Shown one piece after another: positions 22,395-45,463 of a DNA stretch of 64,000 nt (position 1 is the first letter of the stretch; the number at the start of each line of letters is the position of its first letter). The notes beneath the pieces are model-generated. The model was not told the DNA's origin, made no database searches, and saw only the letters and a program-made list of their open reading frames with translations. Location of the stretch: assembly GCA_964539515.1 (NCBI GenBank), contig CAZIJO010000003.1, positions 21,490 through 85,489 on the forward strand. The letters are read 5' to 3'. The translations under genes were made by a program, and so were the position numbers. The stretch comes from an uncultured Bifidobacterium sp. GTDB lineage: Bacteria; Verrucomicrobiota; Verrucomicrobiia; Limisphaerales; JADLHS01.

Positions 22395-22508
22395 CAAAGT
22401 CCAAGAACTGAAGTCGGAAGTCTGACGCCCAAAGTCTAAAGTCAATTGTCTGCCGTGGCGTGGTCAGGTTTGGGACTTTAGGCTTCAGACTTTAGCCTTT
22501 AGCCTTTA
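22395..22508. repeat. heptamer-periodic inverted repeat (AAAGTC / GACTTT)
   Basis: caaagtc caagaac tgaagtc ggaagtc tgacgcc caaagtc taaagtc versus gacttta ggcttca gacttta gccttta gccttta. Confidence 0.75.
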
Positions 22509-22973
22509 AATAACGAAGTCGAGGGCGCTGGCGGGGGTCAGTTCGAGTTTGCGCGCGCGCTCGGCCAGATCGGCCAGCGTGACCCGCTCCATGATGGCAA
22601 CGATGGCGTCGCGCGTGTCCTTCATCACGCTCCGGATGGCGCAGCGGGATTCGTCGGGGCAGGAGCATTTCTCGTAAAAGTTCTCACTCACGCAGCTGAT
22701 CGGTGCGAGTGCACCCTCAATGTGGCGGACAATTTCCGCCAGGTTGATTTTATCGGGCCGCCGCCGCAGGCGATAACCACCCGCCACCCCGCGCTTGCTC
22801 TCAACCAAGTGGGCGGATTTGAGATCGTTGAGGATCTGTTCCAGGAAACGTTTCGGAATGTTCTGCTTCCGCGAGATTTCCTGAATGCGCACCACGGAGT
22901 CATCCTCCTGAAAGTCACGCGCCAGAACCAACAGCGCTCGTAGCGCGTATTCCCCACGAACGGATAGTTTCAT
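22506..22973 (-). CDS. Rrf2 family transcriptional regulator (CymR/IscR-like)
   Basis: MKLSVRGEYALRALL, IPKRFLEQIL, SKRGVAGGYRL; four Cys in C-x8-C-x-C-x5-C; C-terminus LDFVI; divergent from the sulfur operon. Confidence 0.93.
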   Translation of the reverse strand: MKLSVRGEYALRALLVLARDFQEDDSVVRIQEISRKQNIPKRFLEQILNDLKSAHLVESKRGVAGGYRLRRRPDKINLAEIVRHIEGALAPISCVSENFYEKCSCPDESRCAIRSVMKDTRDAIVAIMERVTLADLAERARKLELTPASALDFVI

Positions 22974-23067
22974 GCCAGCAAGTAAACAATCTCTACCTGA
23001 AAAGTAAAGTTTTAGAGAATCAGAGAATATGTCGATATTACAGGCAAAAACAAACTACAAAATAACT

Positions 23068-23093
23068 ATTGACTTAGTAGAGATTAAGTCTAT
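23068..23093 (+). promoter_or_regulatory. candidate Rrf2 operator overlapping a TTGACT -35-like hexamer
   Basis: ATTGACTTA-GTAGAGAT-TAAGTCTAT dyad in the AT-rich divergent intergenic region; the core GTAGAGATT recurs inverted at 22988-22996. Confidence 0.55.
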
Positions 23094-23121
23094 TCTGGTC
23101 GCGTTGTTACGAAAAATAGGT

Positions 23122-23310
23122 ATGAAAACAATCGAAAATTCAGCCAAAACACCAGTGGTGGCGAACCAGGAAACCTGGCTTGAAACGGTGCGTGCCCAAG
23201 TCGCTTCGTTGCGCTTTGGCGTTGTGCAGATTGTTGTTCATGATTCCCAGGTCGTACAGATCGAGCGCACCGAGAAAGTAAGGCTCGACCGTAAACCGTT
23301 GGAAGGGTAA
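23122..23310 (+). CDS. YezD/DUF2292 family small protein
   Basis: SLRFGVVQIVVHDSQVVQIERTEKVRL signature. Confidence 0.9.
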   Translation: MKTIENSAKTPVVANQETWLETVRAQVASLRFGVVQIVVHDSQVVQIERTEKVRLDRKPLEG

Positions 23311-23339: not shown

Positions 23340-25073
23340 ATGAGGAGAATCGCGAAAACAATCCTGTTTGGTTGGAACATGCCAGTCATGGTTTTAGCTG
23401 GCCTGTTGTCACCAGTTGGGGGGAAAGCCCAACCGGTATCTTCGAACACCGTTCCGGCTGCCACGCCCTCCTCCCAAGCGGTCCCTGCTGCCAACGGAGT
23501 TTCTCCGAGCCAGCCAGAACAATCGGAGCTGATCAAAGAACTGCTCGGTCGCTTGGAGCGGCTTGAAAACAAGGAGGCGGAGCAAAAGCAGCGGACCGAA
23601 GCCGCCGAGAAGGCACACCAGGAAGAGGTGCAGAAACTCCTCGGGCGCATCGGTGAACTCGAGGGCAAGGTCGGCTCCCTTGAGTCGGGCAAGGTCCTGC
23701 CCGAGATCGCGGTTTCCCCAAAGGATGGGCCGACAACGCAGGAGCTGGATCAGAAACTTCGGGTGATGGCGCGCAACGAGGAGCTGGCGGCAGAAGCCGC
23801 CGAGGCGCAAGCCGCCGCGCGCGCGAAGGAAACGCCGCGAATCACGGCCGGGGCGAATGGATTCGCCATCAGTTCGGCGGACACGAACTATGTGTTGAAG
23901 CTACGGGGTTTGGTGCAGGTGGATTCGCGTTCCTTTTTTGACGACAATCAATACCTCGAAGGCAATGATGGTTTTTATTTGCGGCGCGCCCGGCCCATTT
24001 TCGAGGGCACGCTCTTTCGTGATTTCGATTTCAATTTGACGCCCGATTTCGGCGGCAACAACGTCCAAATCTTTGATGCCTGGATGAATTACCGTTACCG
24101 GCCCGAGTTGCAGTTGAAGGCCGGAAAGTTCAAGAGCCCGGTCGGATTTGAAATGTTGCAATCCGTCGGCATGCTGCCGTTTAACGAGCGTTCGTTGGTC
24201 AGCAATTTTGTGCCGGCACGAACCCTCGGCCTCCAAATCTGGGGAGACATTGCCGGTGGAGCGGTAAGTTATGCCGCCGGGGTTTTTGATGGCTCCGGGG
24301 ATGCGCGAGTTGCGAGCAACAGCGATATCGATGATGCCAAGGAATTCGCGGGACGGCTTGGGTTTCAACCATTCAAGCAAAGCGCCACCACCATGCTGAC
24401 GGGACTTCGCTTGGGCGCGGGCGGGAGCTTCACCCAGGTGCGTTCCAATACCGCCAGCTTGCCGAACACGACGGGCGGAACTTTGCCCGGTTATGTGACC
24501 TCCGCCTTGCAACAATTCTTTGCCTACAATCCGGCGATCGGGACCGTATATGCCGACGGGGTTCACTGGCGGATTTCCCCCTATGCGGCCTACACCCTGG
24601 GACCATTTGGGCTGTTGGGGGAATACATCGTTGCCCAGCAGGGCGTGGTAAACAGTGTGACCGGGGCGCGCGAGGATTTGTTGGATTCGGCCTGGCAGCT
24701 TTCTGCGCAATGGGTGTTGACGGGTGAAGATGCCTCCTTCACTGGCATCGCGCCGAAGTCGCCATTTGATCCGCGGGCTGGAAAATGGGGAGCCTGGCAG
24801 CTCGTGGCCCGCTTTGCCCAGGCGGATCTTGATTCAGATGCTTTCCCCGTTTTCTCCGATCCCACGCTTTCGGCGCATTCGGCCATGAGTTGGGGAATTG
24901 GGCTGAACTGGTGGCTGAACCGGAATGTCCGGGTGCTTACGAGTTATTCCAGAACCTGGTTTGGCGGCGGGGGCGAGGTGAATCCGGTGTTCATCGGCAC
25001 CCACGTGCCCCCGGCCACGGTTACGCACCAGGACGAAAGCGTATTCATGACCCGGCTCCAGCTTGCGTTTTAA
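23340..25073 (+). CDS. OprO/OprP-family anion-selective porin with N-terminal coiled coil
   Basis: LRGLVQVD, FYLRRARPIFEG, DAWMNYRY, KAGKFKSPVGFE, ERSLV; ends LQLAF (beta-signal Phe). Confidence 0.88.
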   Translation: MRRIAKTILFGWNMPVMVLAGLLSPVGGKAQPVSSNTVPAATPSSQAVPAANGVSPSQPEQSELIKELLGRLERLENKEAEQKQRTEAAEKAHQEEVQKLLGRIGELEGKVGSLESGKVLPEIAVSPKDGPTTQELDQKLRVMARNEELAAEAAEAQAAARAKETPRITAGANGFAISSADTNYVLKLRGLVQVDSRSFFDDNQYLEGNDGFYLRRARPIFEGTLFRDFDFNLTPDFGGNNVQIFDAWMNYRYRPELQLKAGKFKSPVGFEMLQSVGMLPFNERSLVSNFVPARTLGLQIWGDIAGGAVSYAAGVFDGSGDARVASNSDIDDAKEFAGRLGFQPFKQSATTMLTGLRLGAGGSFTQVRSNTASLPNTTGGTLPGYVTSALQQFFAYNPAIGTVYADGVHWRISPYAAYTLGPFGLLGEYIVAQQGVVNSVTGAREDLLDSAWQLSAQWVLTGEDASFTGIAPKSPFDPRAGKWGAWQLVARFAQADLDSDAFPVFSDPTLSAHSAMSWGIGLNWWLNRNVRVLTSYSRTWFGGGGEVNPVFIGTHVPPATVTHQDESVFMTRLQLAF

Positions 25074-25108
25074 GTCCCTGACCTATGAAAGGAATCAATC
25101 AAGTGCAA

Positions 25109-26107
25109 ATGACCAAACTCATCACCCTTTTGGTAGCCGCTTTGGCGGCCTTGGGCTCGGGAGCGGGCGTAAATGCCAAGGACTTCAAGCTCCTCAACGT
25201 CTCCTATGACCCCACGCGCGAGCTCTACACGGAGTACAACGCCGCCTTCGCGAAGTTTTGGAAGGAAAAGACCGGTGACACCGTGAAGATTGATCAATCC
25301 CACGGCGGCTCGGGCAAACAGGCGCGCTCGGTGATGGAAGGACTCTCCGCCGATGTCGTCACCCTCGCGCTGGCTTACGACGTGGACGTCATTGCGGAGA
25401 AGGCGAGACTGTTCCCGGCCACGTGGCAAAAGCGATTGCCCGGCAATAGTGCGCCCTACACCTCGACGATCGTATTCCTGGTGCGCAAAGGGAATCCCAA
25501 AGGCATCAAAGATTGGAACGACCTCGTCAAGCCGGGCGTGGCGATTATTCCGGCCAATCCCAAAACCTCCGGGGCGGCCCGGTGGACGTATCTGGCGGCG
25601 TGGGGCTACGTGTTGAAAAACGGCGGGGACGAGGTGAAGGCGAAAGAATTTGTGGCAAAATTCTACAAGAACGTGCCTGTGCTCGATACCGGCGCGCGGG
25701 GAGCGACCACCACCTTCATCCAGCGCGAAATCGGCGATGTGCTTGTGGGCTGGGAGAACGAGGCGTTCCTTGCGCTCAAGGAATACGGGGCGGACAAATT
25801 CGAAATCGTTGTTCCGTCCGTCAGCATTCTGGCGGAGCCGCCGGTGACGGTCGTGGACAAGGTGGCGAAGAAAAAGGGCACCGAAGCCGTTGCCACGGCA
25901 TATCTCGAATATCTTTACTCGGATGAGGGCCAGGAAATTGCCGGACGGAACTTTTATCGTCCGCGTTCCGAAAAGGCGGCAGCGAAGTACGCCAGCCAAT
26001 TCACCAAGGTCAGTCTGTTCACGATTGATGAAGTGTTCGGTGGCTGGCAGAAGGCGCACAAGGCGCACTTTGCGGACGGCGGCTCCTTTGATCAGATCCA
26101 ACGCTGA
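25109..26107 (+). CDS. sbp: sulfate ABC transporter substrate-binding protein
   Basis: [54 protein letters not shown]-type motif, [11 protein letters not shown]. Confidence 0.95.
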
Positions 26108-26141
26108 ACGCCTCGCGCACCACCGCCAGAGCCCAAAACCC

Positions 26142-27155
26142 ATGAACGTCACCGTTGCCGCAAAACGATTCGCGCTCGGAGCAATGGCCCTTGCTGCGGT
26201 GTCGTTGGCCGCGGCGGCGGAGACGAAGCTCTTGAATGCCTCATTCGACATTTCGCGTGAATTGTTCCAGCGCTACAACGAAGCCTTTGTGCGCCACTGG
26301 CAACAGGCAGGGGGCGCGAGCGTGGCGGTGAATCAGTCGCACGCCGGTTCTTCCAAGCAGGCGCGCGCGGTGATTGATGGCCTGGAGGCCGATGTGGTCA
26401 CTTTCAACCAGGTCACGGATGTGGAAGCGGTGGCCGAGCGTGGTCTGATCGCCCGCGACTGGCGCAAGCTGTTGCCGCATCAAAGTTCGCCTTTCAGCTC
26501 CACGATCGTGTTTCTGGTGCGCCAGGGAAACCCCAAGGGCATCAAGGACTGGAGCGACCTGGTGCAGCCCGGCATCTCGGTGATCGTGCCCAATCCGAAA
26601 ACCTCGGGCAACGGCCGTTACAGTTATTTGGCGGCGTGGGGATACGCGCTGAAGCAATCCGCCGGTGACGAGGCGAAGGCCCGCGAGTTTGTGGGGAAAC
26701 TGTTCGCGAACGTTCCCGTCCTCGACACCGGCGGTCGCGGTGCCACCACGACATTCGCCCAGCGCGAAATCGGCGATGTGCTGCTGACCTTCGAGGCGGA
26801 GGTGTATTTGACGGTGAAGGAATTTGGCGCGGGGAAATTCGAGGCGGTCGTGCCTTCGTGCAGTATTGAGGCCGACATGCCCGTGGCCGTAGTCCAAAAG
26901 GTGGTTGGCAAGCGCGGCACGGAGCAACTCGCACGCGCTTATCTCGAACACCTTTATTCGGACGAAGGGCAGGGGATCATTGCGGCCAATTATTATCGGC
27001 CCCGATCGCAAAAGGTTGCCGGGCAATACGCCGCCCAGTTCGGCAAGCTGGAGTTGTTCTCCGTCGAGAAAGTCTTTGGTGATTGGGCCAGCGCGCAAAA
27101 GACGCATTTCAGCGAGGGCGGCGTGTTCGACCAACTCTACAAAAAATCCAAGTGA
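26142..27155 (+). CDS. cysP: thiosulfate/sulfate ABC transporter substrate-binding protein (CysP-like)
   Basis: SFDISRELF, QSHAGSSKQAR, DVVTFNQVTDV and SGNGRYSYL match CysP rather than Sbp. Confidence 0.85.
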   Translation: MNVTVAAKRFALGAMALAAVSLAAAAETKLLNASFDISRELFQRYNEAFVRHWQQAGGASVAVNQSHAGSSKQARAVIDGLEADVVTFNQVTDVEAVAERGLIARDWRKLLPHQSSPFSSTIVFLVRQGNPKGIKDWSDLVQPGISVIVPNPKTSGNGRYSYLAAWGYALKQSAGDEAKAREFVGKLFANVPVLDTGGRGATTTFAQREIGDVLLTFEAEVYLTVKEFGAGKFEAVVPSCSIEADMPVAVVQKVVGKRGTEQLARAYLEHLYSDEGQGIIAANYYRPRSQKVAGQYAAQFGKLELFSVEKVFGDWASAQKTHFSEGGVFDQLYKKSK

Positions 27156-27157
27156 CC

Positions 27158-27982
27158 ATGAGCACGACCATGATTTCACGCTTCCCGGAAAAGCCGGCGG
27201 CAGCCCGCCTGCGTTCAGCCGGCGACGCCGTTGCGCCATTGGAGGCGCTGGCGGCCAGTTCGCCCAATTTGGTGGCGAATCACGAATTGCGCTTCGATCA
27301 GGCCGGTGAGTCCTATGTGTTGCCGCGTTACACTTATCTCGGGCTCCGCGGGGGCGACCGCCCCATCCGCATCGGCATTTTTGCCGGGATTCATGGCGAT
27401 GAGCCCGAGGGCGTGCGCGCGGCGGTGTTGTTTCTGAAGCTGCTGGAGAGCGTGCCCGAGGTGGCGCGAGGTTACTCCCTCACGGTCTATCCGGTTTGCA
27501 ACCCCACGGGCTACGAGGACAACACTCGCTTGTCACGCCGGGGCAGGGACCTGAACCGTGAATTCTGGACGAACTCGGGCGAGCCAGAGGTGAAACTTCT
27601 CGAAGCCGAGCTGGGCGCGCGTTCATTTGACGGCATCATCTCCCTGCACACGGACGATACCAGCGATGGTTTCTACGGTTATGCGCGGGGCGCCACATTA
27701 ACCAAACACCTGATCGAACCCGCCCTGGCCGCTGCCGAGCGGATTTTGCCGCGTAATGCTCGTGAGACCATCGACGGCTTTCGGGCGCGCAACGGAATCA
27801 TCTTGGAATGCTACCAAGGCGTCCTGAGCGCGCCGGCCAGTGCAAGTCCGCGTCCATTCGAAATCATCCTCGAAACGCCGCAGTCGCCCGCCCCCGAGGT
27901 CAAGGACGCCGCCTTCGTCGCGGCATTGCAAACCATCCTGCTCGAATACCGGAAGTTCATTGCCTACGCGCCCAACATTTGA
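27158..27982 (+). CDS. M14-family Zn metallopeptidase/deacylase (AstE/AspA-like), intact active site
   Basis: IHGDE, NPTG...R...DLNR, SLHTD, ILETP; no signal peptide; ends AYAPNI. Confidence 0.85.
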   Translation: MSTTMISRFPEKPAAARLRSAGDAVAPLEALAASSPNLVANHELRFDQAGESYVLPRYTYLGLRGGDRPIRIGIFAGIHGDEPEGVRAAVLFLKLLESVPEVARGYSLTVYPVCNPTGYEDNTRLSRRGRDLNREFWTNSGEPEVKLLEAELGARSFDGIISLHTDDTSDGFYGYARGATLTKHLIEPALAAAERILPRNARETIDGFRARNGIILECYQGVLSAPASASPRPFEIILETPQSPAPEVKDAAFVAALQTILLEYRKFIAYAPNI

Positions 27983-27992
27983 GCCCGCAACC

Positions 27993-28826
27993 ATGACGCT
28001 CGTGAACTCCAAACGGCACCCGGTCAAAGCGGCGAACGACTCGCGCCAGCCGGACCGGCTGTTGCGCTACTTCGATGCCGTCGCGGAAAAATCCGGCCAC
28101 CTGCTGAGCAAGGCGGTGAAGACGTTCGAGTCCGCTGGCGAACTCTATGGCCTCCCGCGTTTTATTTGGGCCGGGCCAGCGGGTGGTCATGACACGTTTC
28201 GCCTTGGCATTTTCGCCACGTTGAATGGCGATGAGCCGGAGGGCGCGTTTGCCCTGACGCGATTCATCGCGGGATTGGAACAAGCGCCCGAACTGGCGCG
28301 GGGCTATGCTTTCTCGATTTATCCGCTCTGCAACCCCACGGGCTTCGAGGACAACACCCGCCTCTCCCGTGCCGGCGCTGCGTTGAACCGTTTGTTCTGG
28401 ACCGAATCCGACGCGCCCGAAGTCCGCTTTCTCGAATCGGAAATCTGGATGCAGGCGTTTCACGGCATCCTCAACCTGCGCAGTGACGCGGAAACTGCGG
28501 GCGTTTATGGCTTCGCCTCGGGTGGGATCATCTCGCAGGCCTTGCTGCAACCCGCGCTTCAGGCGGCGGGAACCTTTCTCCCGCGCAATCGTCAACGCGA
28601 GATCGACGGCATCCCCGCCCGGCGCGGGATGGTGTATGCGGACATCTACAACGCCGCGCGCGGAGCGTTGCGCGCCGTGCCTGGCCTGGAGAATCCGCCG
28701 TTTGAAATTACCCTGGCCACACCGCGCGCGGCCGCGGTGCATCTGCAAGTCGAGGCGCTGAATGCGGCGTTGCTTGCCATCCTGTCCGAATTCCGCTCAT
28801 TACAGGCCTATGCCCAGAACATTTGA
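27993..28826 (+). CDS. M14-family paralog with degenerate active site
   Basis: Co-linear with paralog 1, but LNGDE (H>N), ALNR (D>A), LRSD (H>R), TLATP (E>A); ends AYAQNI. Confidence 0.82.
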   Translation: MTLVNSKRHPVKAANDSRQPDRLLRYFDAVAEKSGHLLSKAVKTFESAGELYGLPRFIWAGPAGGHDTFRLGIFATLNGDEPEGAFALTRFIAGLEQAPELARGYAFSIYPLCNPTGFEDNTRLSRAGAALNRLFWTESDAPEVRFLESEIWMQAFHGILNLRSDAETAGVYGFASGGIISQALLQPALQAAGTFLPRNRQREIDGIPARRGMVYADIYNAARGALRAVPGLENPPFEITLATPRAAAVHLQVEALNAALLAILSEFRSLQAYAQNI

Positions 28827-28846
28827 ACCACGACCAAGGTGAACCC

Positions 28847-29671
28847 ATGAAAACCACTGCGCTTGCCCCCGCCATCCGTGCCGGATTCAACCTGCGCGAG
28901 CGTCCCACGCTGGCCGATCTGTTGGCGCCCCTGGATCAACTCGCTGCCAAGTCGTCCAATCTGCTTGCCCGGCCCCTTGGGCAGTTTGAGCGCGATGGCC
29001 ACAGTTACGCGATGCCACGCTACATTTTCGTCGGCCCGCAAGGCGGGGATGTGCCGATTCCCGTCGGCATTTTCGCCGGCATCTATGGGGATGAACCGGA
29101 AGGAACACGCGCATTGGTGAAGTTCGCCCAATTGCTCGAAGCGCATCCCGAACTTGCCGCCGGGTATGTCCTGTTCCTCTATCCGGCTTGCAATCCCACC
29201 GGGCTCGCGGCGGGCACGGCGTTTTCCAGCCGCGGCAAGGACCTGAATCTTGAACTTGTGAAGATCTCTCACGAACCCGAGGCGCGCTGGTTGCAAAGTG
29301 AACTCGCGTCGCAACACCTGGAAGGCATCATCAAGCTGCACACCAAGGCCGGGAGCAATACCTTCTACGGGCTGGTTCGGGGCGAGACCCTTGCGCGCCA
29401 ACTGCTGGATCCCGCGCTGGCCGCCGCCGCGGAATTGTTGCCGGTGGCGGAGGACTCAGGCATCGAGGCGTTTCGCGCGCGGGATGTTTCCTACGACCAC
29501 TATGAAGGTGGATCGCCGACGGCGCCAGAAGCTCCGACGCGTCCGTTCGAGGTCATTCTCGAAACGCCCGGGCAGGTTCCGGCTTATCTTCGCGAATGGG
29601 CCTTCGTGCTGGCGCTACGTTCCATTCTGACCGAGTACCGGAAATTCCTCGCCTACGCTCCCAACCTTTGA
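28847..29671 (+). CDS. M14-family paralog, partly degenerate
   Basis: IYGDE (H>Y), DLNL (R>L); LHTK and ILETP retained; ends AYAPNL. Confidence 0.82.
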
Positions 29672-29697: not shown

Positions 29698-30663
29698 ATG
29701 CCTCGCATCTACAACAACATCACGGAAACGATCGGCAATACGCCGCTCGTGCGCTTGAATCGCACTGCGCAAAACCATGGCGCGGTCGCCGAGGTCCTGC
29801 TCAAACTGGAATTCTTCAATCCGCTGTCCAGCGTGAAGGACCGTATCGGGGTGGCGATGATTGATGACGCCCTGCAAACCGGGAAGATCAACCCGAGCAC
29901 GGTGCTCATCGAACCCACGAGCGGCAACACCGGCATCGCGCTCGCCTTCGTGGCGGCGGCCCGGGGACTGAAGTTGATTCTCACCATGCCCGAAACCATG
30001 AGCCTCGAACGCCGCAAGCTGCTCAAGATTCTTGGCGCAAAATTGGTCCTGACCGAGGGCCCAAAAGGGATGAAAGGCGCCATCGCCAAGGCCGAGGAAT
30101 TGCGCCAGCAGATTCCGAACAGCGTCATTCTTCAGCAGTTCTCCAATCCGTCGAACCCGGCGATTCATCGCAAGACCACGGCGGAGGAAATCTGGCGCGA
30201 CACGGACGGCAAAGTTGACTTTGTTGTCGCGGGTGTTGGAACGGGTGGGACGATCACCGGCGTGGCCGAAGTCATCAAGTCGCGCAAGCCTGCTTTCAAG
30301 GCAATCGCGGTTGAGCCGGTCAAATCGCCGGTCATTTCGGGCGGCCAGCCCGGCCCGCACAAGCTGCAGGGCATCGGCGCGGGTTTCATTCCGGACAATC
30401 TAAACGTGAAGATCGTGGACGAGGTCATCAAGGTGGATGAAGCCGAATCCGGCCCGGTGTCGAAGGAGATCAACCGCCTCGACGGGATTCCCGTTGGCAT
30501 TTCGAGCGGCGCCATTGTTTGGGCGGCGTTGCAAGTGGCAAAGCGCCCGGAGAACTTAGGCAAGCAGATTGTCGCCATCGTGCCGTCCGCCTCGGAACGT
30601 TATCTGTCATCGTGGCTGTTTGCCGACATTGATACGGAGAGCGACAAGCTCGATTTCGTCTAG
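29698..30663 (+). CDS. cysK: cysteine synthase A (O-acetylserine sulfhydrylase)
   Basis: [15 protein letters not shown] (PLP Lys), [41 protein letters not shown]. Confidence 0.96.
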
Positions 30664-43427: not shown

Positions 43428-44363
43428 ATGGCTGGCATTACCAAAAAACAATGGGCCGGAGGGCGCAAGAAATCGCAACGCGGGACGGAAGAATCCCCGT
43501 TTGCGAAATGGACGCTCATTGCCCTGGCGATGCTGTTTTGCCTGGTTTTTCTGCTCCTGCCGCTGATCAACGTGTTTGCGCAGGCGTTTGCCAAAGGTTG
43601 GACGGCTTACTGGTCCGCGCTGACGCATCCGGATTCCTGGTCGGCGATCAAACTCACCCTGCTGGTGGCGGCGATCAGCGTGCCGTTGAATGTGCTGTTC
43701 GGGCTCGCGGCCGCCTGGGCGATTGCCAAGTTCGAGTTTCGCGGCAAGGCGCTGCTCATCACCTTGATCGATCTGCCCTTCTCGGTTTCGCCGGTGGTGG
43801 CGGGCTTGATGTTCATCGTGTTGTTTGGTCTGCAGGGTTTTTTTGGCGAATGGCTGAACGATCATGACTTCAAAGTCATTTTTGCGGTACCCGGGATTGT
43901 GCTGGCGACGGTGTTCATCACCTTCCCGTTCGTGGCCCGGGAGTTGATCCCCGTGATGCAGGCGACCGGCACGGACCAGGAGCAGGCGGCCCTCACCCTG
44001 GGCGCCAACGGCTGGCAGACTTTCTGGCACGTCACGCTGCCGTCCGTAAAGTGGGGGCTGATCTACGGGATTATTTTGTGCAACGCCCGCGCGATGGGCG
44101 AATTCGGCGCCGTGTCGGTGGTGAGCGGTCACATCACCGGGCAGACGGATACAATGCCTTTGCGGGTGGAGAAACTTTACAACGAGTATCAGGGGCCGGC
44201 GGCTTTCGCCGTCGCCAGTCTCCTGGCGATGCTGGCGCTGGTAACATTGGCTATCAAAACCTTCCTGGAATGGAAGCAGCACCGGGAATTTGAACTCGCC
44301 CAGCAGGCGACGCTGGGGGAGACCGGCGACACGGTTTTCCTGGCGCAACCCAAATCTGAATGA
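43428..44363 (+). CDS. cysW: sulfate ABC transporter permease CysW
   Basis: LIDLPFSVSPVVAG, FPFVARELIP, ARAMGEFGAVSVVSG, TMPLRVE. Confidence 0.95.
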   Translation: MAGITKKQWAGGRKKSQRGTEESPFAKWTLIALAMLFCLVFLLLPLINVFAQAFAKGWTAYWSALTHPDSWSAIKLTLLVAAISVPLNVLFGLAAAWAIAKFEFRGKALLITLIDLPFSVSPVVAGLMFIVLFGLQGFFGEWLNDHDFKVIFAVPGIVLATVFITFPFVARELIPVMQATGTDQEQAALTLGANGWQTFWHVTLPSVKWGLIYGIILCNARAMGEFGAVSVVSGHITGQTDTMPLRVEKLYNEYQGPAAFAVASLLAMLALVTLAIKTFLEWKQHREFELAQQATLGETGDTVFLAQPKSE

Positions 44364-45463
44364 GCATCGAACTGAAAGGCGTCACCAAGAAATTCGGCGA
44401 GGTCACCGCCGTGAATGATGTCAATTTCTCCGTCAACGACGGGGAATTGATGGCCTTGCTGGGGCCCAGCGGCGGCGGCAAGACGACGGTGCTGCGGATG
44501 ATTGCGGGCCTCGAAGTGCCGACCGAAGGGGACATCTTCGTCCGGGGCGAGCGGGTGAACGATGTGCCGGTGCAGAAGCGCAACATCGGGTTCGTCTTTC
44601 AGAGTTACGCGCTGTTCAAGAGCATGACGGTGTTCAAAAACATTGCCTTCGGTCTGAAGATAAAAAAGTGGAAGCCGGCGGAGGCCGAGGCCCGGGTGAT
44701 GGAATTATTGCAACTTTTTGGTCTGGCCGGCCTGGAGAATCGTTATCCGCACCAGCTATCCGGCGGGCAGCGGCAACGCGTGGCCATCGCCCGCTCCCTG
44801 GCGCCCAAGCCCGGCGTGCTGTTGCTGGATGAACCGTTTGGCGCCGTGGACGCAAAGATCCGCCAGGAGTTGCGCGAGTGGCTCGTGACCCTGCACCACG
44901 AGCTGAATGTGACTACGATTTTCGTCACGCACGACCAGGAGGAAGCGATGGAAGTTTCGAATCGCATCGTGATTTTCTCGAAGGGAAATCTCGAACAGAT
45001 CGGGACGCCGCGCGAAGTCTATGAACAACCGGCGAACGAATTCGTGGCGCGCTTTGTAGGTGTAATGAACGTCCTCGACACCGAGGTGTCGGGGGGCGTC
45101 GCCCGGATCAATGAAATGGCGTTTCCGGCCGGTGGTCACGCCGACGGCATGCGCCTGCGGATAGGTTTCCGGCCGTACGCGGTGCAGGTTTCCAATGATC
45201 TGGCCCTGCTTCCCTATCGCGCCGTATTGCGGCACACTTTCTTCCTCGGAATCCTGCTACGGCTCGAATTGGAACTGGCCTCCGGCCTGATCATTCGTAG
45301 CCGTATGACAAAGGAAGAATATGCCCAGCTGGGCCTGGTTGACGGTCGGGAGGTGTCGTTTCAAATCAAAAGTTACCGTGTGCTGGCGAGCGAAGATGCC
45401 CGGCTGGCGCCGGAGTTGGAGGCGACGTACCAAGCCCCGCCAACCATCGGCGAGCACATTTGA
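44360..45463 (+). CDS. cysA: sulfate ABC transporter ATP-binding protein CysA
   Basis: GPSGGGKT Walker A, FVFQSYALF, LSGGQRQRVA, LLLDEPFGA, THDQEEA; TOBE-like tail. Confidence 0.95.
   Translation: MSIELKGVTKKFGEVTAVNDVNFSVNDGELMALLGPSGGGKTTVLRMIAGLEVPTEGDIFVRGERVNDVPVQKRNIGFVFQSYALFKSMTVFKNIAFGLKIKKWKPAEAEARVMELLQLFGLAGLENRYPHQLSGGQRQRVAIARSLAPKPGVLLLDEPFGAVDAKIRQELREWLVTLHHELNVTTIFVTHDQEEAMEVSNRIVIFSKGNLEQIGTPREVYEQPANEFVARFVGVMNVLDTEVSGGVARINEMAFPAGGHADGMRLRIGFRPYAVQVSNDLALLPYRAVLRHTFFLGILLRLELELASGLIIRSRMTKEEYAQLGLVDGREVSFQIKSYRVLASEDARLAPELEATYQAPPTIGEHI

What the first reader, a model, noticed from the sequence alone, without database searches (positions are those of the whole stretch)
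22506..22973. Rrf2 regulator combining a four-Cys cluster with a CysK-docking-type C-terminus (-LDFVI)
Established: B. subtilis CymR forms a complex with CysK, and serine acetyltransferases dock into the CysK active site via a C-terminal Ile (plant SAT ends -DYVI). This Rrf2 ends -DFVI and also keeps four Cys (C-x8-C-x-C-x5-C) where IscR/NsrR bind Fe-S. It may integrate O-acetylserine status through CysK with an Fe-S, metal or redox input.
Basis: partly seen in the sequence, partly recalled or inferred. Interest (0 to 1): 0.62.

Follow-up and report, generated by a model that had tools for sequence, protein, structure and literature searches.

The report
CymR-like sulfur repressor with iron-sulfur cysteines
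A small DNA-binding regulator beside a sulfate-uptake and cysteine-synthase operon has a conserved tail of the kind that plugs into cysteine synthase, plus four cysteines where its relatives hold an iron-sulfur cluster, so it probably senses sulfur supply in two ways.

Summary
ORF 22506-22973 (-) encodes a 155-aa Rrf2 protein with C94-x8-C103-x-C105-x5-C111, ending in -DFVI.

- **Conservation.** In 80 species-level orthologues (68-96% identity), Ile(-1), Phe/Tyr(-3), Asp/Glu(-4) and all four Cys are invariant. The linker varies and codons vary synonymously.
- **Gene context.** The gene is divergent from an operon of YezD, porin, two sulfate-binding proteins, three M14-like genes and cysK.
- **Operator.** A conserved 25-bp dyad (AATCTCTA-N9-TAGAGATT) covers that operon's -35 box.
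- **Partner enzymes.** The genome's serine acetyltransferase ends -DFQI. The operon's CysK is closest to M. tuberculosis CysK1, which was crystallised with the peptide DFSI.
- **Known part.** Docking of the CymR tail into CysK has been shown in S. aureus, so that half of the idea is not new.
- **New part.** The tail is combined here with NsrR/IscR-type cluster cysteines, which Firmicute CymR lacks. The combination occurs in several phyla, in five of six contexts examined at the head of sulfur-assimilation operons.

Most likely this is a CymR-like repressor that uses CysK/O-acetylserine as one input and an Fe-S (or thiol) site as a second. No binding was tested. It is a new variant of a known kind.

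The parts
22506..22973 (-). rrf2 gene (155 aa plus TAA stop): the CymR-like/IscR-like regulator
   Evidence: PF02082 E 3.2e-39. Best fold match is B. subtilis CymR 2y75 (TM 0.74/0.88), then T. potens IscR 4cic.
22509..22520 (-). Codons for D152-F153-V154-I155, the proposed CysK-docking tail
   Evidence: [DE]-[FY]-x-I in 80/80 orthologues with synonymous codon variation. AF2 pLDDT is about 54 for residues 151-155, which suggests a flexible tail. The motif matches the MtbCysE peptide DFSI crystallised in MtbCysK1 (PDB 2Q3C; PMC9547175).
22641..22694 (-). Cys loop C94...C103-x-C105...C111, the putative Fe-S (or metal/thiol) site
   Evidence: Four Cys in 80/80 orthologues. C94, C105 and C111 align with S. 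coelicolor NsrR Cys93/99/105, and C103 lies in a 5-residue insertion. The loop has low pLDDT (54-64) in the cofactor-free AF2 model.
23061..23085 (.). Operator 1: 25-bp dyad (family consensus AATCTCTA-CTATGTCAA-TAGAGATT) overlapping the -35 box of the sulfur operon promoter
   Evidence: Conserved in 61 orthologous intergenic regions. It is one of the two best dyad matches in the whole 6.1-Mb assembly.
22988..23012 (.). Operator 2: second dyad-like site (AATCTCTAC...) 15 bp upstream of the rrf2 start codon; possible autoregulation
   Evidence: 2 mismatches in 16 arm positions, tied best in the genome. The arm AGAGATT at -21 is seen only in the closest relatives.
23069..23096 (+). Sigma-70-like promoter TTGACT-16-TATTCT of the divergent sulfur operon
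   Evidence: The -35 box is conserved as TTGACA/TTGACT in the orthologues.
23122..23310 (+). YezD/DUF2292 small protein, first gene of the operon
   Evidence: PF10055 E 3.2e-16. It follows the rrf2 gene in Verrucomicrobiota and in distant phyla.
23340..25073 (+). Porin of the O/P type (anion-selective)
   Evidence: PF07396 E 4.6e-32.
25085..27155 (+). Two sulfate/thiosulfate ABC substrate-binding proteins (25085-26107 and 26151-27155)
   Evidence: TIGR00971 at 494 and 461 bits, NF008022 at 524 and 441 bits.
27083..29671 (+). Three AstE/AspA (M14-like) deacylase paralogues, role unknown
Evidence: PF24827 gives weak hits for two of them.
29716..30663 (+). cysK (O-acetylserine sulfhydrylase A), the proposed docking partner
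   Evidence: TIGR01139 at 444.5 bits, cut-off 350.95. Closest solved structure is M. tuberculosis CysK1 (3zei, 2q3b/c/d; E 2e-120), and the TSGNTG and QQF active-site stretches are conserved.

Best explanation
The gene encodes a CymR-type repressor of sulfur assimilation. As an Rrf2 dimer it binds a 25-bp dyad that covers the -35 box of the divergent promoter. That promoter drives yezD, a porin, two sulfate-binding proteins, three M14-like genes and cysK, and probably the rest of the long sulfur locus. A second dyad-like site next to the regulator's own start codon may give autoregulation. The flexible C-terminal tail ends in D-F-V-I with a free Ile carboxylate. I propose that it inserts into the active site of CysK, as the tails of serine acetyltransferase and of Firmicute CymR do. 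In that model, CysK stabilises the repressor on DNA when O-acetylserine (OAS) is low, meaning sulfur is sufficient. When sulfide or cysteine is short, OAS accumulates, competes for the CysK active site and releases the tail, and the operon is derepressed. SAT (-DFQI) competes for the same site. Because cysK is in the regulated operon, the co-repressor would feed back on its own synthesis. Unlike CymR, this protein keeps the cluster-binding loop of IscR/NsrR-type Rrf2 proteins: C94, C105 and C111, plus an extra C103. It therefore probably also carries an Fe-S cluster whose presence tunes DNA binding. That would couple sulfur uptake to Fe-S status. What is shown here: the sequence features, their conservation, the gene context, the operator, and the tail match to SAT and to MtbCysE. 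What is inferred: CysK binding, release by OAS, cluster binding, and the direction of regulation.
For: (1) The protein is an Rrf2 family member, and its best fold match is B. subtilis CymR. (2) The tail [DE]-[FY]-x-I and the four Cys are invariant in 80 species while the linker varies and codons vary synonymously. (3) cysK scores above the cysK equivalog cut-off and lies in the divergent operon. Its nearest solved relative is MtbCysK1, which was crystallised with the native SAT tetrapeptide DFSI, and six orthologues end in exactly DFSI. (4) The same genome's SAT ends -VDFQI. In 30 families of the order, 30/30 SATs end in Ile and 27/30 in [DE][FY]xI. (5) Docking of the CymR tail into CysK has been shown experimentally in S. 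aureus. (6) Synteny with the sulfate-uptake operon is conserved in most of the 80 loci and in other orders of the phylum. A conserved dyad overlaps the -35 box. (7) In other phyla (source names among the matching proteins include Syntrophaceae and Bryobacteraceae), homologues with the Cys loop end in -MYYI or -D[FY]xI. In 5 of 6 contexts examined they head sulfate/sulfonate transporter or sulfite reductase operons. (8) The two other Rrf2 paralogues in this genome have no Ile tail. (9) C94, C105 and C111 align with the NsrR [4Fe-4S] ligands.
Against: No physical test of CysK binding, of OAS release or of cluster content was possible. The protein scores far below the CymR and IscR equivalog cut-offs (84 vs 195 bits and 87 vs 207 bits), so it is a member of neither curated family. 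Four sulfate-operon-linked homologues in other Verrucomicrobial orders lack the Ile tail although their genomes encode CysK, so the tail is not obligatory for controlling this operon. The residue equivalent to the IscR His107 ligand is Arg114 by my own alignment from memory of the IscR sequence, so the fourth ligand is uncertain. The genome-wide dyad scan found convincing sites only at this locus, so a wider cysteine regulon is not shown. The SAT candidate scores below the TIGR01172 cut-off (146 vs 211 bits).
Confidence: 0.55

Rival explanations
1. The protein is a CymR-like, CysK-dependent repressor as above, but the four Cys do not hold an Fe-S cluster. Instead they bind Zn as a structural site, or act as a thiol/persulfide (reactive sulfur or oxidant) switch.
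For: Four conserved Cys in a short loop (CxC plus two flanking Cys) could equally form a Zn(Cys)4 site or disulfides or persulfides. S. aureus CymR is known in an oxidised form (PDB 3t8t, listed). The His ligand of IscR is not conserved (Arg114).
Against: Three of the Cys align exactly with the [4Fe-4S] ligands of NsrR. They sit in the loop that holds the cluster in every characterised Fe-S Rrf2 protein. Invariant Glu8 occupies the position of the trans ligand in NsrR (Asp8) and RsrR (Glu8); that comparison rests on established knowledge.
Confidence: 0.2
2. The protein is an IscR/NsrR-like Fe-S sensor only. The conserved tail serves another purpose, such as contact with another partner (YezD or the M14-like proteins), dimer packing or proteolytic control, and does not dock into CysK.
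For: There is no direct binding evidence. Some sulfate-operon-linked homologues lack the tail. The protein scores as well against the IscR model as against the CymR model.
Against: The tail matches the SAT tail of the same lineage ([DE][FY]xI) and the crystallised MtbCysE peptide. A C-terminal Ile with a free carboxylate is the defining anchor of all known CysK ligands. cysK is in the regulated operon. The paralogues lack the tail.
Confidence: 0.15
3. The tail and the extra Cys are lineage noise without function.
For: None beyond the absence of experiments.
Against: Both are invariant across 80 species at 68-96% identity, with synonymous codon turnover and a variable neighbouring linker. Both recur in other phyla.
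Confidence: 0.03

Closest known systems
CymR-CysK regulatory complex of Bacillus subtilis and Staphylococcus aureus
   Same: Both are Rrf2 repressors of sulfur and cysteine genes, and CymR is the best structural match (2y75). Both have a short flexible C-terminus ending aromatic-x-Ile. S. aureus CymR ends ..GYMFYI, which docks in the CysK active site with KD 25 nM. In both cases the CysK partner is encoded in the genome.
   Different: CymR has no Cys in the cluster loop (alignments), whereas this protein has four invariant Cys. Identity is only about 30%, and the score is 84 bits against the CymR equivalog cut-off of 195. The tail is of the SAT type (DFxI) rather than MFYI. The organism is a Verrucomicrobiota bacterium, and cysK lies inside the regulated operon.
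IscR / NsrR / RsrR (Fe-S cluster Rrf2 regulators; T. potens IscR 4cic is the best sequence match in the PDB)
   Same: The fold is the same and the Cys loop is in the same place. C94, C105 and C111 align with the NsrR cluster ligands.
   Different: This protein is not next to isc, suf or NO-detoxification genes. It has a fourth Cys (C103) in a 5-residue insertion. The IscR His107 equivalent is Arg. It has a C-terminal Ile tail. It scores 87 bits against the IscR cut-off of 207.
Cysteine synthase complex (SAT C-terminus in the CysK active site), e.g. M. tuberculosis CysK1 with DFSI (PDB 2Q3C)
   Same: The four-residue motif is the same, Asp-Phe-x-Ile-COOH. The CysK here is closest to MtbCysK1. 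This lineage's SAT ends -DFQI.
   Different: Here the tail sits on a transcription factor and not on an enzyme.
CdiA-CT toxin activation by CysK (E. coli 536)
   Same: It is another unrelated protein that borrows a C-terminal ..GYGI tail to dock into CysK (background in PMC4961446, found).
   Different: That protein is a toxin and not a regulator. There is no sequence relationship.

Membership tests
Rrf2 superfamily (PF02082 / TIGR00738) | Winged-helix N-terminal domain plus dimerisation helix; score above the curated cut-off | tested here: met
   PF02082 at 134.5 bits (cut-off 30) and TIGR00738 at 128.5 bits (cut-off 73.3). The AF2 fold matches CymR, IscR, RsrR and NsrR.
CymR (NCBIfam NF047409 equivalog) | Score above the equivalog cut-off | tested here: not met
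   84.2 bits against a cut-off of 195.
CymR | C-terminal peptide ending in Ile that docks into CysK | tested here: inconclusive
   The sequence motif is present and invariant. Physical docking cannot be tested with these tools.
CymR | Controls sulfur and cysteine metabolism genes | tested here: inconclusive
   Conserved divergent synteny with the sulfate-uptake/cysK operon, and a conserved dyad over its -35 box. No expression or binding data.
CymR | No Fe-S ligand cysteines in the loop after the wing | tested here: not met
   Four invariant Cys are present here and none in B. subtilis or S. aureus CymR.
IscR (TIGR02010 equivalog) | Score above the cut-off; Cys92/98/104 plus His107 ligand set; adjacent isc or suf genes | tested here: not met
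   87.3 bits against a cut-off of 207.55. Three Cys are conserved, but the His position is Arg114 (my alignment from memory of E. coli IscR). The neighbours are sulfate-uptake genes and not isc or suf genes.
Fe-S cluster-binding Rrf2 proteins in general | Three conserved Cys in the loop between the wing and the dimerisation helix that ligate a cluster | tested here: inconclusive
   The Cys are positionally conserved with the NsrR ligands. Cofactor content cannot be tested here.
CysK-docking C-terminal peptides (SAT, CymR, CdiA-CT) | Free C-terminal Ile preceded by a hydrophobic or aromatic residue on a flexible linker, with a CysK (not CysM) partner whose active-site residues are conserved | tested here: met
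   The tail is DFVI-COOH. Tail pLDDT is about 54. CysK scores above the TIGR01139 cut-off with TSGNTG and QQF conserved. The SAT of the same lineage uses the same motif. Only sequence-level criteria were tested; binding itself was not.

The most novel reading that the evidence does not exclude
This gene represents a widespread class of dual-input sulfur regulators found in several phyla. The window's organism is a Verrucomicrobiota bacterium, and source names among the distant matches include Syntrophaceae (Desulfobacterota) and Bryobacteraceae (Acidobacteriota). In this reading, one Rrf2 protein combines an Fe-S cluster with a CysK/O-acetylserine-sensing tail and usually works with the uncharacterised YezD/DUF2292 micro-protein. 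The class would be the master switch of assimilatory sulfur uptake in many non-model bacteria. It would also be the ancestral form from which the cluster-less Firmicute CymR derives.
Probability: 0.35. Interest if true: 0.75.

Novelty: new variant of a known kind. Interest (0 to 1): 0.55.

Why it matters
Regulation of sulfate assimilation is understood mainly for CysB in Proteobacteria and CymR in Bacillales. For Verrucomicrobiota, Acidobacteriota and many other abundant soil and freshwater phyla it is essentially unknown. This locus offers a concrete, testable regulator, a defined operator and a defined protein partner. If the Cys loop does hold a cluster, it would be the first case known to me of one transcription factor reading both the O-acetylserine/CysK signal and Fe-S status. 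That would link cysteine supply directly to its largest consumer. It would also suggest how CymR evolved from an IscR-like ancestor. The tails (DFxI, MYYI) are further natural high-affinity CysK ligands.

Tried and rejected
1. **Profile scan for related loci.** The search for related loci with the 43-sequence diverse alignment failed because no stretch was conserved enough. A narrower alignment worked.
2. **Second homologue search.** The search with the diverse profile returned only the same Verrucomicrobial clade and gave no new diversity. A profile of the MYYI group was needed.
3. **Wider regulon.** A genome-wide dyad scan (at most 4 mismatches in 16 arm positions) found only the two sites at this locus as convincing. 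The four next-best sites lie inside or beside unrelated genes.
4. **Tail loss versus CysK loss.** I tested whether tail-less homologues in other orders sit in genomes without CysK. They do not: all four tail-less genomes, and the tail-bearing control, have CysK. In only one genome (G045) do both SAT and the regulator lack the Ile tail, which is anecdotal.
5. **Literature.** Searches for an Rrf2 regulator of sulfate assimilation in Verrucomicrobia, and for DUF2292/YezD function, found nothing relevant.
6. **Not attempted.** I did not try a complex model of regulator plus CysK, because the structure tool takes one unmodified protein.

Full report
**1. The observation**

The window has an ATG-to-TAA ORF at 22506-22973 on the minus strand that encodes 155 residues. 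It is a clear Rrf2-family protein: PF02082 E 3.2e-39, and TIGR00738 128.5 bits against a cut-off of 73.3. It scores far below the curated cut-offs of every named subfamily: IscR 87/207, CymR 84/195, RirA 73/193 and NsrR 52/182 bits.

**2. Conservation**

- Of the 120 closest database proteins (79-95% identity), 119 end in Ile (118 in D-F-x-I), and 119 keep the Cys motif.
- A scan of one genome per GTDB species gave 80 loci at 68-96% identity. All come from Verrucomicrobiota of the Pedosphaera/Limisphaerales group; some records carry obviously wrong binning labels.
- In those 80 loci, Ile(-1), Phe/Tyr(-3), Asp/Glu(-4) and the four Cys are each present in 80 of 80. Positions -5 to -12 are variable.
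- Codons at the conserved positions turn over synonymously (Ile: ATT 42, ATC 36, ATA 2; Asp: GAT 40, GAC 37; Cys: TGC/TGT mixed), and the stop codon varies. The constraint is therefore on the amino acids, not on the repeat-rich DNA around the stop.

**3. Surroundings**

The gene is transcribed divergently from a long sulfur locus:

- a YezD/DUF2292 micro-protein (23122-23310);
- an O/P-type porin (23340-25073);
- two sulfate/thiosulfate-binding proteins (25085-27155);
- three M14/AstE-like paralogues (27083-29671);
- cysK (29716-30663; TIGR01139 444 bits against a cut-off of 351).

The divergent arrangement of YezD, porin and Sbp recurs in most of the 80 orthologous loci. It also recurs in 44-51%-identical homologues from other orders of the phylum.

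Aligning the intergenic regions of 61 loci reveals a 25-bp dyad, AATCTCTA-CTATGTCAA-TAGAGATT. Its centre is the -35 box (TTGACA/TTGACT) of the sulfur-operon promoter. In the window this is 23061-23085, over the promoter TTGACT-16-TATTCT. A second dyad-like site (22988-23012) lies next to the rrf2 start. These two sites are the best matches in the whole 6.1-Mb assembly, and the next-best matches are not near sulfur genes. The geometry is that of a repressor occluding the promoter, possibly with autoregulation.

**4. The tail**

Established knowledge, confirmed in the literature held here, is as follows:

- The C-terminal Ile carboxylate of SAT anchors in the CysK active site.
- M. tuberculosis CysK1 was crystallised with the native MtbCysE tetrapeptide DFSI (2Q3C) (PMC9547175).
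- The S. aureus CymR C-terminal decapeptide EDLDGYMFYI docks into CysK with KD 25 nM, and a pentapeptide suffices (bioRxiv 10.1101/2024.09.19.614015).

A CysK-docking tail on an Rrf2 regulator is therefore the known CymR mechanism, not a new idea.

Four findings here are specific to this locus:

- The operon's CysK is most similar, among all solved structures, to MtbCysK1 (E 2e-120), with the TSGNTG and QQF active-site stretches intact.
- The regulator's motif D-F-x-I is the MtbCysE motif, and six orthologues end in exactly DFSI.
- The best SAT candidate of this genome ends -VVDFQI. In 30 families of the same order, all 30 SATs end in Ile and 27 in [DE][FY]xI. Regulator and SAT of this lineage thus share one four-residue consensus.
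- The two other Rrf2 paralogues of this genome have no such tail.

An AlphaFold2 model (mean pLDDT 82) gives a confident Rrf2 fold whose last residues (151-155) have pLDDT of about 54, which fits a flexible tail. Its best structural match in the PDB is B. subtilis CymR, followed by T. potens IscR.

**5. The cysteines**

In the alignment with the [4Fe-4S] form of S. coelicolor NsrR (5n07), C94, C105 and C111 fall on Cys93, Cys99 and Cys105, which are the cluster ligands according to established knowledge of NsrR. C103 lies in a five-residue insertion. B. subtilis and S. aureus CymR have no Cys in this loop. The loop has low confidence (pLDDT 54-64) in the cofactor-free model, as is usual for cluster loops. 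Glu8 is invariant in the 44 aligned sequences and sits where NsrR (Asp8) and RsrR (Glu8) supply a ligand in trans. The IscR His107 position is Arg114 by my own alignment. The protein is therefore plausibly an Fe-S protein with either all-Cys or Cys3-Glu ligation, but this is inference only.

**6. How general is it?**

Of 101 full-length representatives of 50%-identity clusters closest to the query, 50 end in Ile and 45 in aromatic-x-Ile. Forty of those 45 also have at least three Cys in the loop.

A profile of the distant -MYYI group recovered 117 further proteins, of which 113 end in Ile, 68 in MYYI and most of the rest in [FY]-x-I. Nearly all have a C-x8-C-x2-C-x5-C or a three-Cys loop, and source names include Syntrophaceae and Bryobacteraceae. 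MYYI is close to the Firmicute CymR tail MFYI.

Gene contexts of six such proteins were examined, and five head sulfur operons:

- L164/L165: Rrf2, YezD, porin, Sbp, CysT, CysW, CysA.
- L166 and L170: Rrf2, YezD, a putative sulfur transporter, sulfite reductase, TusA.
- L168: Rrf2, Sbp.
- L169: Rrf2, Sbp, CysTWA, YezD, a sulfonate ABC transporter.

The combination of cluster-type Cys, a CysK-type tail and a sulfur operon is therefore a recurrent design and not a single-genome curiosity. Some annotation pipelines already label members "cysteine metabolism repressor". I found no paper that describes the class.

**7. Caveats**

- Four homologues in other Verrucomicrobial orders sit next to the same operon but lack the Ile tail, although their genomes have CysK. 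The tail is therefore dispensable in some lineages.
- In one genome both SAT and the regulator lack the tail. This is suggestive, but it is a single case.
- No binding, cofactor or expression data exist.
- The assembly is 86% complete.

**8. Verdict**

The CysK-docking reading is well supported comparatively, but it is the known CymR mechanism. Its combination with NsrR/IscR-type cysteines, in a regulator of sulfate uptake outside the Firmicutes, appears to be undescribed and widespread. I rate it a new variant of a known kind, with interest 0.55.

An earlier follow-up in this scan (e1-5142920) had already noted this regulator's Ile tail while studying the neighbouring genes. My analysis agrees with it. 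It adds conservation statistics, the SAT and MtbCysE motif match, the operator, the mapping of the Cys ligands, and the distribution in other phyla.

Noticed in passing
window 44360-45463 (+); L164:13130-14197; L169:4838-5911: The sulfate ABC ATPase CysA also ends in Ile. The window copy ends ...TIGEHI, and in two distant phyla the CysA next to a tail-bearing Rrf2 ends ...FVEDYVI and ...FVDDYQI, which is a SAT-like [DE]-Y-x-I tail. This hints that CysK may also dock onto the transporter ATPase.
   Followed up: partly
window 23122-23310; L165:8512-8691; L166:8518-8703; L170:1756-1947; L169:5923-6081: The YezD/DUF2292 micro-protein (about 60 aa) follows the tail-bearing Rrf2 gene, or sits inside the sulfur operon, in Verrucomicrobiota and in distant phyla. 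I found no functional literature on it.
   Followed up: partly
L143, L145-L147, L149, L150 (six genomes, most of one genus, from the phylum sample): A 146-aa IscR-like Rrf2 with three Cys (C-x7-C-x5-C) ends ...CDYGAGI. A Gly-Ile C-terminus is reminiscent of the CdiA-CT ..GYGI tail that docks into CysK. No sulfur genes lie within the 1.5-kb flanks.
   Followed up: no
window 27083-29671: Three tandem AstE/AspA (M14-like) paralogues sit between the sulfate-binding proteins and cysK, with only weak Pfam hits. One or two copies recur in many orthologous loci. Their role in sulfur metabolism is unknown.
   Followed up: no
window 22395-22508: A repeat-rich stretch (AAAGTC/GACTTT-type heptamers) lies immediately downstream of, and overlaps, the rrf2 stop codon. 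It does not explain the tail conservation, because the tail codons and the stop codon vary among orthologues.
   Followed up: partly
L030, L015, L024, L025, L028 and others: Several public MAG records that carry this clearly Verrucomicrobial locus are labelled Bifidobacterium, Bifidobacteriaceae, Akkermansia muciniphila, Nitrospirae, Candidatus Acidoferrum and so on. These are probably mis-binned or mislabelled assemblies.
   Followed up: no
G000:C185 (L002:1453-2418): A second, divergent CysK/CysM-like PLP enzyme (321 aa; 311 bits, below the cysK cut-off) lies next to a threonine-dehydrogenase-like gene. Its function was not resolved.
   Followed up: no
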